Shown here piece after piece: positions 45,001-48,000 of a stretch of 64,000 nucleotides of DNA. Numbering within the stretch: the stretch's first letter is position 1; each line of letters opens with the position of its first letter. A program made the position numbers. The stretch is from assembly GCF_053078305.1 (NCBI RefSeq), contig NZ_CP166879.1; one strand, written 5' to 3'.

Positions 45001-48000
45001 TAACCGCCGTTTCCTGCCGACTATCTTCAAACGCGAAATTGCCCATGCCAACCGGACCGGTACACCGCTGTCAGTGCTGATTATTGACGTTGATAAATTC
45101 AAAGAGATCAACGATACGTGGGGCCATAACACTGGTGATGAAATTCTGCGTAAAGTCTCTCAGGCCTTTTATGACAACGTCCGCAGTAGTGATTATGTTT
45201 TCCGCTACGGGGGCGATGAATTTATCATTGTTTTGACTGAAGCTTCTGAAAACGAAACGTTACGTACCGCAGAACGTATTCGCAGTCGAGTGGAGAAAAC
45301 CAAACTGAAAGCCGCAAACGGCGAAGATATTGCCCTCTCACTTTCCATCGGTGCCGCCATGTTTAATGGTCATCCTGACTATGAGCGCCTCATTCAAATA
45401 GCCGATGAAGCTCTGTATATCGCCAAAAGACGAGGTAGAAACCGTGTTGAACTCTGGAAAGCCAGTCTTTAGATGCGCCAGGATGCAGAGGTAATCATGA
45501 AGCTAACCGATGCGGATAATGCCGCCGATGGCATTTTTTTCCCCGCCCTTGAGCAAAATATGATGGGTGCGGTGTTAATTAACGAAAATGATGAAGTGAT
45601 GTTTTTCAACCCCGCCGCAGAGAAGCTCTGGGGGTACAAACGTGAAGAAGTCATTGGCAATAACATTGATATGCTAATTCCGCGGGATTTGCGTCCTGCG
45701 CATCCTGAATACATTCGTCACAACCGTGAAGGCGGTAAAGCGCGCGTCGAGGGGATGAGTCGGGAGCTGCAGCTGGAGAAAAAAGACGGCAGTAAAATCT
45801 GGACCCGTTTTGCGCTATCGAAAGTGAGCGCCGAGGGGAAAGTTTATTACCTGGCGCTGGTACGGGATGCCAGCGTAGAAATGGCGCAAAAAGAACAGAC
45901 CCGACAATTGATTATTGCCGTTGACCATCTCGACCGACCGGTGATTGTCCTCGATCCGGAACGCCATATTGTGCAGTGCAATCGCGCATTTACCGAAATG
46001 TTTGGTTACTGCATTAGCGAAGCCAGCGGTATGCAGCCCGATACACTCCTGAACATTCCTGAATTCCCTGCCGATAACCGCATTCGTTTACAACAGTTGC
46101 TATGGAAAACCGCCCGCGATCAGGACGAATTTCTGCTGTTGACGCGCACCGGTGAAAAAATCTGGATTAAAGCTTCTATCAGCCCGGTTTATGACGTGCT
46201 CGCGCATCTGCAGAACCTGGTAATGACCTTCTCGGATATCACCGAAGAACGGCAAATCCGCCAGCTTGAAGGCAATATTCTCGCCGCCATGTGCAGCAGC
46301 CCGCCATTTCATGAAATGGGGGAAATCATTTGTCGTAATATCGAATCTGTTCTCAACGAATCGCATGTTTCGCTGTTCGCACTGCGCAACGGGATGCCGA
46401 TACACTGGGCGTCATCTTCGCACGGTGCAGAAGTTCAAAATGCGCAAAGCTGGTCAGCGACCATTCGTCAGCGTGATGGCGCGCCTGCGGGGATCCTGCA
46501 AATTAAAACCTCGTCAGGAGCAGAAACCAGCGCCTTTATCGAACGCGTGGCAGATATCAGCCAGCATATGGCCGCGCTGGCGCTGGAACAGGAAAAAAGC
46601 CGTCAGCATATTGAACAACTCATCCAATTTGATCCGATGACCGGTCTGCCAAATCGCAATAACCTGCACAATTACCTCGATGACCTGGTCGACAAAGCCG
46701 TCTCTCCGGTGGTGTATCTCATCGGTGTTGACCATATTCAGGATGTGATTGATAGCCTTGGCTATGCGTGGGCCGATCAGGCATTGCTGGAAGTGGTCAA
46801 TCGCTTTCGTGAAAAACTCAAACCGGATCAGTATCTCTGTCGTATCGAAGGTACGCAGTTTGTCCTCGTGAGCCTGGAAAACGACGTCAGTAACATTACC
46901 CAAATCGCCGATGAGCTACGGAATGTGGTCAGCAAGCCGATAATGATTGACGATAAACCCTTCCCGCTTACCTTGAGTATTGGCATCAGCTACGACGTGG
47001 GTAAAAACCGCGATTACCTGCTCTCCACTGCTCACAATGCAATGGATTATATTCGCAAGAATGGCGGTAACGGCTGGCAGTTCTTCAGCCCGGCGATGAA
47101 CGAAATGGTAAAAGAGCGTTTGGTTTTAGGCGCAGCGCTGAAAGAAGCGATTAGCAATAACCAACTGAAACTGGTTTACCAGCCGCAAATCTTCGCAGAA
47201 ACGGGTGAACTCTACGGCATCGAAGCCCTTGCTCGCTGGCACGATCCCCAGCATGGTCATGTGCCCCCTTCACGGTTTATTCCTCTCGCAGAAGAGATTG
47301 GTGAAATCGAAAATATTGGGCGCTGGGTCATCGCGGAAGCTTGCCGTCAGTTAGCAGAATGGCGTAGCCAGAATATTCATATCCCGGCGTTATCCGTGAA
47401 CTTGTCGGCGCTGCACTTTCGCAGTAATCAACTGCCTAATCAGGTGTCTGATGCAATGCAAGCCTGGGGTATTGACGGCCACCAGCTGACGGTAGAAATC
47501 ACGGAAAGCATGATGATGGAACACGATACCGAAATCTTTAAGCGCATTCAGATCCTGCGTGATATGGGCGTGGGTTTATCGGTAGATGATTTTGGCACGG
47601 GCTTTTCAGGATTATCCCGCTTAGTCAGTCTTCCGGTAACGGAAATCAAAATTGACAAAAGTTTTGTCGATCATTGTCTGACGGAAAAACGCATCCTTGC
47701 CTTACTTGAAGCCATTACCAGCATTGGGCAAAGCCTCAATTTAACCGTCGTGGCGGAAGGCGTCGAAACCAAAGAGCAATTTGAGATGCTACGCAAGATC
47801 CACTGTCGCGTTATTCAGGGATATTTCTTTTCCCGCCCCCTACCCGCCGAAGAAATTCCAGGCTGGATGAGCAGCGTGTTACCGCTGAAAATCTGACAAA
47901 TTCCTCTCGCCCGCACTCGCGGGTTTTCATTTAACGTGACACTGTCACTTAAATACTGTGATTTCAGCTACGATTCCGGGAGATTCCTTCCTTAACTTCC

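What the first reader, a model, noticed from the sequence alone, without database searches (positions are those of the whole stretch)
45470..45499. dosC-dosP junction: stop codon directly abuts an in-frame ATG 24 nt upstream of the conventional dosP start
TAG (45470-45472) is immediately followed by ATG 45473, in frame with the conventional dosP start at 45497. The first would allow tight translational coupling with an 8-residue N-terminal extension. Which start is used affects the DosP N-terminus.
Basis: seen in the sequence. Interest (0 to 1): 0.2.

Follow-up and report, generated by a model that had tools for sequence, protein, structure and literature searches.

The report
Old versus current dosP start codon
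The ATG that touches the dosC stop codon is real, but it is the old, already documented "807-residue" start of the E. coli oxygen sensor DosP, and comparison with related bacteria favours the currently annotated start 24 bases downstream, so the finding is ordinary.

Summary
The dosC stop TAG (45470-45472) is followed directly by ATG 45473, which is in frame with the annotated dosP ATG 45497 and would add MRQDAEVI. It is not new. The 807-residue form is the historical "EcDOS" protein used in PDB entries and in the His77/Met95 numbering, and a 2024 structure paper states the 8-residue difference from UniProt P76129. RefSeq annotates the 799-residue form.

The evidence favours ATG 45497 as the physiological start:
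- It has a GAGGU Shine-Dalgarno (-8.5 kcal/mol against -3.3 for ATG 45473).
- That SD and ATG are conserved in the dosC-dosP operons of Citrobacter and Phytobacter, where no in-frame upstream start exists.
- The upstream ATG is confined to Escherichia. It is ATT in one Escherichia lineage and ATA in 53 E. coli genomes whose dosP is still annotated intact.
- Roughly a fifth of E. coli genomes appear to keep dosP with only a dosC remnant and nothing to couple to (checked in 2 genomes).

A minor extended form made by termination-reinitiation at UAG-AUG is not excluded. I found no ribosome-profiling or N-terminal data for dosP. Novelty: already known. Interest: low.

The parts
44090..45472 (+). 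dosC (globin-coupled diguanylate cyclase), 460 aa, ending in TAG
   Evidence: ORF list. RefSeq annotation of the identical strain A16 and of K-12. Pfam Protoglobin + DosC_2nd + GGDEF.
45470..45472 (+). dosC stop codon TAG, in the same reading frame as dosP
   Evidence: 44090, 45473 and 45497 all share one frame. Mutated to TAT in 15 E. coli genomes, which predicts a DosC-DosP fusion.
45473..45475 (+). Upstream in-frame ATG abutting the stop. This is the historical start of the 807-aa 'EcDOS' form, and it has no Shine-Dalgarno sequence.
   Evidence: PDB chains 1V9Y, 9CDR and 9BGV begin MRQDAEVIMKL. PMC11543664 states the 8-residue difference from UniProt P76129. Anti-SD duplex energy is -3.3 kcal/mol, the median of random positions. 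The codon is ATT in L005 and ATA in 53 E. coli genomes.
45473..45496 (+). 24-nt dosC-dosP spacer, equal to the 8 optional codons MRQDAEVI
   Evidence: Spacer length and frame are not conserved in Citrobacter (26-27 nt) or Phytobacter (33 nt). A Q3P change occurs in cryptic-clade Escherichia and in 11 E. coli genomes.
45488..45492 (+). Shine-Dalgarno core GAGGT, 4 nt before ATG 45497
   Evidence: Duplex with the 16S 3' end is -8.5 kcal/mol, in the top 5% of random positions. Invariant in all 12 Escherichia sequences aligned. Conserved as GCAGAGGT or GCAGGGGT in Citrobacter, and as GAAGGTG in Phytobacter.
45497..45499 (+). Currently annotated dosP start ATG (799-aa form, MKLTDADN...)
   Evidence: RefSeq annotation in every genome inspected. 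The homologous ATG is the first in-frame start codon after a stop in Citrobacter, Phytobacter and one Trabulsiella genome; the other two Trabulsiella genomes have only an adjacent GTG.
45497..47896 (+). dosP (heme-PAS / PAS / degenerate GGDEF / EAL c-di-GMP phosphodiesterase)
   Evidence: Pfam PAS_9, PAS_4, GGDEF and EAL; the first PAS match begins at residue 32-33 in 807 numbering. PDB DosP match at E = 3.6e-102.

Best explanation
This is the junction of the dosC-dosP (dgcO-pdeO) operon of E. coli. DosP is most likely initiated at ATG 45497. A 30S subunit, or a ribosome that has just finished dosC 24 nt upstream, is positioned there by the GAGGU Shine-Dalgarno at 45488-45492. ATG 45473 is an incidental, Escherichia-specific in-frame AUG in the short spacer. 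It was taken as the start in the first genome annotation, which is why the EcDOS literature and PDB entries use an 807-residue protein and the His77/Met95/Arg97 numbering. It was later moved downstream to give the 799-residue UniProt and RefSeq protein. If the upstream AUG is used at all, it gives a minor proteoform carrying 8 extra residues ahead of an N-terminal stretch that lies outside the PAS domain.

Shown here: the sequence, the annotation history, the SD difference, the cross-genus conservation and the natural loss of the upstream ATG. Inferred: which AUG ribosomes actually use in vivo.
For: 1. SD strength. The anti-SD duplex is -8.5 kcal/mol before 45497 and -3.3 before 45473. Random positions in the window average -3.7.

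2. Orthologous dosC-dosP operons. In two Citrobacter species and in Phytobacter the SD and ATG are conserved, and the ATG homologous to 45497 is the first in-frame start codon after a stop. In-frame stops lie 0-9 codons upstream with no start codon between them.

3. Variation within Escherichia. The upstream ATG is ATT in L005 and ATA in 53 E. coli genomes that still have dosP annotated as an intact 2400-nt gene. Codon 3 of the extension changes Gln to Pro. The SD segment has no change in any sequence aligned.

4. Loss of dosC. About 1,090 of 5,354 E. coli records align over less than 80% of the 1-kb junction query. The sampled rows of this kind carry a dosC remnant. In the one examined in detail (clone D i2) and in strain A4, only a 165-nt 3' fragment of dosC remains, without its start codon, beside an intact dosP. 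DosP in such strains cannot depend on re-initiation after dosC.

5. Dispensability of the N-terminus. A functional heme-PAS crystal construct starts at residue 16 (1S66). Deposited cryo-EM chains 9CMF and 9CLO start at residue 20. Pfam PAS models start at residue 32.

6. Annotation history. PMC11543664 states that the construct carries eight N-terminal residues (MRQDAEVI) not in UniProt P76129 and keeps the 'historical numbering'. [quoted passage not shown] His77, Met95 and Arg97 fall on H, M and R only in the 807 numbering.
Against: No direct in vivo evidence for either start was found. Held supplements of a tetracycline ribosome-profiling paper and of an N-terminomics paper have no dosP entry, and the retapamulin paper has no held supplement.

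A weak SD does not exclude use. Annotated neighbours such as ddpB (-2.2) and digH (-3.5) also lack one.

Zero-distance stop/start pairs are the geometry at which termination-reinitiation works best, and it decays steeply with distance. [quoted passage not shown] A ribosome finishing dosC meets AUG 45473 first.

The upstream ATG is present in about 99% of E. coli genomes with the junction and in three of four other Escherichia lineages. At this low divergence that is also what neutrality predicts.
Confidence: 0.8

Rival explanations
1. Dual start. Ribosomes terminating at the dosC UAG re-initiate at the abutting AUG 45473 by termination-reinitiation, making an 807-residue DosP in fixed proportion to DosC. 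Free 30S subunits initiate at the SD-led AUG 45497 and make the 799-residue form. Both proteoforms would then be present at appreciable levels (10% or more each).
For: The stop-start distance is zero, and termination-reinitiation is strongly distance dependent in E. coli. The contribution of the SD to re-initiation varies from gene pair to gene pair (PMC6728339). DosC and DosP are reported to form a complex, and closely spaced gene pairs are enriched for subunits of complexes. The ATG is retained in about 99% of E. coli junctions.
Against: The arrangement is not conserved outside Escherichia. The ATG was lost independently at least twice, so 2 of the 5 substitution types seen in the 24-nt spacer hit the ATG. 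The extension shows a Q3P change. There is no SD. The extension lies ahead of a region missing from functional constructs. The SD at 45488 lies only 16 nt from the stop and could capture the same terminating ribosome for AUG 45497.
Confidence: 0.15
2. The original annotation is right: ATG 45473 is the main or only start, and native DosP has 807 residues.
For: It is the longest ORF. Recombinant 807-residue protein is folded and active in many studies and structures.
Against: Recombinant constructs supply their own initiation signals or fuse malE directly to the chosen dosP start codon, so they say nothing about the native start. All comparative evidence points to 45497. Natural ATA and ATT alleles keep dosP intact. 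Curated RefSeq annotation and UniProt (as cited in PMC11543664) use the 799-residue form.
Confidence: 0.03
3. The spacer acts as a regulatory element rather than as coding sequence. One version is RNA structure that hides the SD until dosC is translated. Another is the 3-codon out-of-frame mini-ORF (ATG 45483 CAG AGG TAA) modulating initiation at 45497.
For: The mini-ORF overlaps the SD and is present in Escherichia and in two of the three Citrobacter sequences.
Against: Folding of 45420-45540 is no more stable than shuffled sequence (z = 0.09). There is no Rfam match. The mini-ORF's conservation is explained by the SD it overlaps, and it is lost in C. amalonaticus AUH (GGAAGC).
Confidence: 0.02

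Closest known systems
E. coli DosP / EcDOS (PdeO, YddU; UniProt P76129; PDB 1V9Y, 1S66, 9CDR) with its two published N-termini
   Same: This is the same gene. The window is 100% identical to E. coli strain A16 across the 1-kb junction query and identical to K-12 across the 180-nt junction alignment. The 807-aa ORF begins MRQDAEVIMKL exactly as in PDB chains 1V9Y, 9CDR and 9BGV. The 799-aa form is the RefSeq protein.
   Different: Nothing is different in the sequence. The only open point is which N-terminus the native protein has, and I found no direct measurement of it.
Translational coupling by termination-reinitiation at overlapping or abutting gene pairs (Huber et al. 2019, 2023; PMC6728339, PMC10666635)
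   Same: The genes are co-directional in one operon, the distance between the dosC stop and AUG 45473 is zero, and the products are reported to form a complex.
   Different: There is no SD before the abutting AUG and the arrangement is not conserved in orthologous operons. The conserved start is 24 nt away, a distance at which that mechanism is already weak. Dependence of dosP translation on dosC translation has not been tested.
In-frame alternative start sites that give N-terminal proteoforms (retapamulin ribosome profiling, Meydan et al. 2019, bioRxiv 10.1101/520783)
   Same: Two in-frame AUGs lie 8 codons apart with no stop between them.
   Different: No initiation signal at both sites has been shown for dosP, and the upstream site is not conserved.
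True stop-abutting starts in the same window (ddpC 51320, ddpF 53192, yddB 33598)
   Same: In each case the start codon directly follows an in-frame stop triplet.
   Different: Each of those has a Shine-Dalgarno motif upstream: GGAGGTG, AGGAGGT and CGGAGA. The duplex energies computed for ddpC and ddpF are -16.7 and -11.5 kcal/mol. ATG 45473 has none.

Membership tests
DosP / EcDOS oxygen-sensing c-di-GMP phosphodiesterase | Heme-binding N-terminal PAS domain with the His/Met axial ligands, followed by PAS, a degenerate GGDEF domain and an EAL domain | tested here: met
   Pfam PAS_9/PAS, PAS_4, GGDEF and EAL. Near-identity to PDB DosP chains. H77, M95 and R97 are present in 807 numbering.
DosP / EcDOS oxygen-sensing c-di-GMP phosphodiesterase | [quoted passage not shown] | tested here: met
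   dosC at 44090-45472 and dosP at 45497-47896, with RefSeq annotation.
Termination-reinitiation coupled gene pair | Stop and start codons overlap or lie within a few nucleotides | tested here: inconclusive
   Met for ATG 45473 (distance 0). Not met for the conserved start ATG 45497 (+24 nt).
Termination-reinitiation coupled gene pair | Translation of the downstream gene depends on translation of the upstream gene | not testable with these tools
   This needs reporter fusions with premature stops in dosC. Indirect evidence against strict dependence: dosP is retained intact in genomes that lack the dosC start.
Termination-reinitiation coupled gene pair | The arrangement (and usually an SD inside the 3' end of the upstream gene) is conserved among orthologous operons | tested here: not met
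   Citrobacter and Phytobacter have 26-33 nt spacers and no abutting start. There is no SD before 45473.
Alternative in-frame start / N-terminal proteoform pair | Two in-frame start codons with no intervening stop | tested here: met
Alternative in-frame start / N-terminal proteoform pair | Experimental initiation signal or N-terminal peptide for both starts | not testable with these tools
   No dosP entry in the held supplements of PMC4909307 or PMC13245402, and no supplement is held for 10.1101/520783.
Alternative in-frame start / N-terminal proteoform pair | Both starts maintained by selection | tested here: not met
   The upstream ATG is absent outside Escherichia and was lost in L005 and in 53 E. 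coli genomes.
Superseded start-codon annotation | The older literature or annotation uses the longer ORF, current curated annotation uses the shorter one, and comparative data support the shorter | tested here: met
   The 807-aa form appears in PDB entries and reviews. The difference is stated explicitly in PMC11543664. RefSeq uses 799 aa. For the comparative data.

The most novel reading that the evidence does not exclude
In Escherichia only, the UAG-AUG abutment lets ribosomes that finish dosC re-initiate at once. This would make an 8-residue-longer DosP in cis and in fixed ratio with DosC, for example to favour co-translational assembly of the DosC-DosP complex. SD-led initiation at 45497 would supply DosP independently of DosC. 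The two starts would then set the cyclase-to-phosphodiesterase balance.
Probability: 0.1. Interest if true: 0.3.

Novelty: already known. Interest (0 to 1): 0.08.

Why it matters
The practical consequence is bookkeeping. Residue numbers in the DosP/EcDOS literature (His77, Met95, Arg97) are offset by 8 from UniProt and RefSeq (His69, Met87, Arg89). Most recombinant DosP carries 8 residues that the native protein probably lacks. If the upstream AUG were used to an appreciable extent, it would be a small example of a start-site choice that links the output of a c-di-GMP cyclase and phosphodiesterase pair. Nothing found here suggests that the extra residues have a function.

Tried and rejected
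- **RNA structure that masks the SD or couples the two genes.** Folding of 45420-45540 is no better than shuffled sequence (z = 0.09). Rejected.
- **Known RNA families across 43700-45800.** None found at E <= 1.
- **Internal promoter that would give a dosP-only transcript.** There is one weak sigma-70-like match at 45171-45199, no more than in shuffles. Uninformative.
- **Direct experimental start-site data.** The held supplements of the TetRP paper (PMC4909307) and of TRAINSPOTTER (PMC13245402) contain no dosP, b1489 or yddU entry. The retapamulin preprint has no held supplement. The journal versions of Meydan 2019 and Weaver 2019 could not be fetched by DOI. A full-text search for dosP plus ribosome profiling returned one paper, which I did not open, and its title concerns co-translational protein folding. 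A peptide-string search found MRQDAEVI only in PMC11543664.
- **RNase E processing of the yddV-dos mRNA.** I recalled this from memory (Sommerfeldt 2009). It could not be documented from the held library and is not used as evidence.
- **Exact look-up of the 807-aa protein.** It is not in the protein collection, while the 799-aa form is. This reflects gene callers, not biology.
- **Codon-level selection on the 8-codon extension.** Only 5 substitution types were seen: 2 destroy the ATG, 1 is non-synonymous and 2 are synonymous. That is too few for a test.
- **Python-side analysis of most fetched loci.** Only some locus files were available to the script machine, so I used the alignment files instead.

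Full report
**1. The observation**

The window reads ...CTT TAG ATG CGC CAG GAT GCA GAG GTA ATC ATG AAG CTA... at 45467-45505.
- TAG 45470-45472 closes a 460-aa ORF (44090-45472).
- ATG 45473 opens an 807-aa ORF.
- ATG 45497 lies 24 nt downstream in the same frame, and the extension translates as MRQDAEVI.
- The region is E. coli dosC-dosP. A 1-kb query around the junction is 100% identical to strain A16 and matches 5,353 of 5,426 complete E. coli genomes.
- Pfam finds Protoglobin + DosC_2nd + GGDEF for the upstream protein and PAS/PAS/GGDEF/EAL for the downstream one.

**2. Is it more than chance?**

No.
- Stop+ATG hexamers are not enriched in the window (94 observed against about 124 expected).
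- In 8 of 52 long ORFs of this window the first start codon abuts an in-frame stop.
- Three of those 8 start at annotated gene starts (yddB, ddpC, ddpF). Each has a Shine-Dalgarno motif upstream, and the duplex energies computed for ddpC and ddpF are -16.7 and -11.5 kcal/mol.
- ATG 45473 has no such motif (-3.3 kcal/mol, the median of random positions).

**3. It is already known**

- PDB chains of DosP (1V9Y, 9CDR, 9BGV) begin MRQDAEVIMKL.
[quoted passage not shown] We retain this historical numbering" (PMC11543664).
[quoted passage not shown] In the window's sequence H, M and R fall at 77, 95 and 97 only in the 807 numbering, which corresponds to 69, 87 and 89 in the 799 numbering.
- RefSeq annotates the 799-aa form in every genome I inspected, including K-12 (NP_416006.4).

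The "upstream ATG" is therefore the superseded original start, not a new alternative.

**4. Which start is real? Sequence signals**

- ATG 45497 is preceded by GAGGU at 45488-45492, four bases upstream. The duplex with the 16S 3' end is -8.5 kcal/mol, in the top 5% of random positions.
- ATG 45473 has only a GGA 13 nt away (-3.3 kcal/mol).
- This is suggestive rather than decisive, because annotated neighbours such as ddpB (-2.2) and digH (-3.5) also lack an SD.
- The junction has no significant RNA structure (z = 0.09) and no Rfam match.

**5. Which start is real? Comparison across genera**

A scan of species-representative genomes returned dosP orthologues from four other Escherichia lineages, three Citrobacter, Phytobacter, Kosakonia and Trabulsiella.

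| Genome | Upstream gene | Spacer | In-frame start upstream of the conserved ATG |
|---|---|---|---|
| Citrobacter MAG (L007) | dosC | 27 nt | none |
| C. amalonaticus (L008) | dosC | 26 nt | none (in-frame stop 1 codon upstream) |
| Phytobacter (L009) | dosC | 33 nt | none (in-frame stop 1 codon upstream) |
| Trabulsiella (L012-L014) | not dosC | n/a | none in one genome; an adjacent GTG in two |

- In Citrobacter and Phytobacter the ATG homologous to 45497 is the first in-frame start codon after a stop.
- Trabulsiella has no dosC upstream (checked in L012), yet it has the same SD-led start with at most an adjacent GTG.
- The nucleotide block GCAGAGGTAA is conserved between Escherichia and Citrobacter although it is non-coding in Citrobacter. 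This is the signature of a Shine-Dalgarno element.
- The conserved DosP N-terminus is therefore MKL(T/S)D..., which is the 799-aa form.

**6. Which start is real? Variation within Escherichia**

Junction 32-mer haplotypes among about 5,315 E. coli genomes that hold the junction:

| Haplotype | Genomes | Effect |
|---|---|---|
| Reference | 5,062 | none |
| CGC to CGT plus ATC to ATT | 168 | both silent in the extension frame |
| ATG 45473 to ATA | 53 | upstream start lost |
| TAG to TAT | 15 | dosC stop lost |
| CAG to CCG | 11 | Q3P in the extension |

- The ATA strains still have dosP annotated as an intact 2400-nt gene.
- A separate Escherichia lineage (L005) has ATT, and three cryptic-clade lineages carry Q3P.
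- Two of the five substitution types in the 24-nt spacer destroy the upstream ATG, and none touches the SD. That is the opposite of what selection on ATG 45473 would give, although the numbers are small.
- About 1,090 of 5,354 records align over less than 80% of the 1-kb query. The sampled rows of this kind carry a dosC remnant. In the one examined in detail (clone D i2) the dosC start and most of the gene are deleted, leaving a 165-nt 3' fragment, yet dosP is intact. There is then no dosC translation to couple to.

**7. Does the extension matter for the protein?**

Probably not.
- A crystal construct of the heme-PAS domain starts at residue 16 (1S66).
- The deposited cryo-EM chains 9CMF and 9CLO start at residue 20.
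- Pfam PAS models begin at residue 32-33.
- The first dozen residues of the 799 form already vary between genera.

**8. What remains open**

- In E. coli, re-initiation after termination is most efficient at overlaps or near-zero distance and falls steeply with distance. [quoted passage not shown]
- The need for an SD varies by gene pair (PMC6728339).
- A ribosome finishing dosC therefore meets AUG 45473 in the best possible geometry, and a minor 807-aa proteoform cannot be excluded.
- I found no ribosome-profiling or N-terminomics datum for dosP in the material I could reach.
- I put about 0.8 on the 799 form being essentially the native protein, about 0.15 on appreciable dual use, and about 0.03 on the 807 form being the main product.

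**9. Verdict**

The feature is already known as the historical versus current dosP start. Interest is low. Its practical value is a reminder of the 8-residue numbering offset between the DosP literature and the databases.

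Noticed in passing
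window 45470-45472; L041 (NZ_AP045762.1) position about 337-339: dosC and dosP share one reading frame, and TAG is the only stop between them. Fifteen E. coli genomes carry TAG to TAT, which predicts a single DosC-Tyr-MRQDAEVI-DosP fusion polypeptide of about 1,268 aa. PGAP calls dosC a pseudogene 'missing C-terminus' in these genomes. From general knowledge, amber-suppressor laboratory strains should make some of the same fusion.
   Followed up: partly
L038 (clone D i2) 1295-1539; window 44049-45307 deleted there: Many E. coli genomes keep only remnants of dosC. About 1,090 of 5,354 records align over less than 80% of the 1-kb junction query. In clone D i2 what remains is a 45-bp internal fragment plus the last 165 nt. 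The deletion removes the dosC start and turns the small upstream ORF (yddY in K-12) into a 57-codon ORF. dosP is intact.
   Followed up: partly
window 45483-45494: An out-of-frame three-codon mini-ORF, ATG CAG AGG TAA, overlaps the dosP Shine-Dalgarno sequence. It is present in Escherichia and in two of the three Citrobacter sequences. Its conservation is most simply explained by the SD itself.
   Followed up: partly
window 45518-45542: A terminator-like hairpin (AATGCCG-CCGA-TGGCATT) followed by a T run of seven lies 21 nt inside dosP. It is weak in this window (-8.6 kcal/mol, z = -0.9) and stronger in a cryptic-clade Escherichia (-12.5 kcal/mol, z = -3.7). It is absent in Citrobacter. The scan found no more such sites than in shuffled sequence.
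   Followed up: partly
L044 (NZ_CM168005.1, strain PEC422) 1469-1548: A deletion joins a truncated gadC directly to ...CTCTTTAG|ATG. It removes digH and all of dosC except its last 8 nt (through the TAG stop), and leaves dosP with both ATGs.
   Followed up: no
protein cluster: The 90%-identity cluster that holds the 799-aa DosP also lists 460-aa DosC proteins as members. The two proteins are not that similar, so read-through fusion sequences may bridge them, or the cluster may be an artefact.
   Followed up: no
L011 (C. amalonaticus AUH) and L009 (Phytobacter) dosP: The dosP reading frame is interrupted in these two records. The longest ORFs are 739 aa starting 188 nt downstream (L011) and 311 aa (L009). 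This could be a pseudogene or an assembly error.
   Followed up: no
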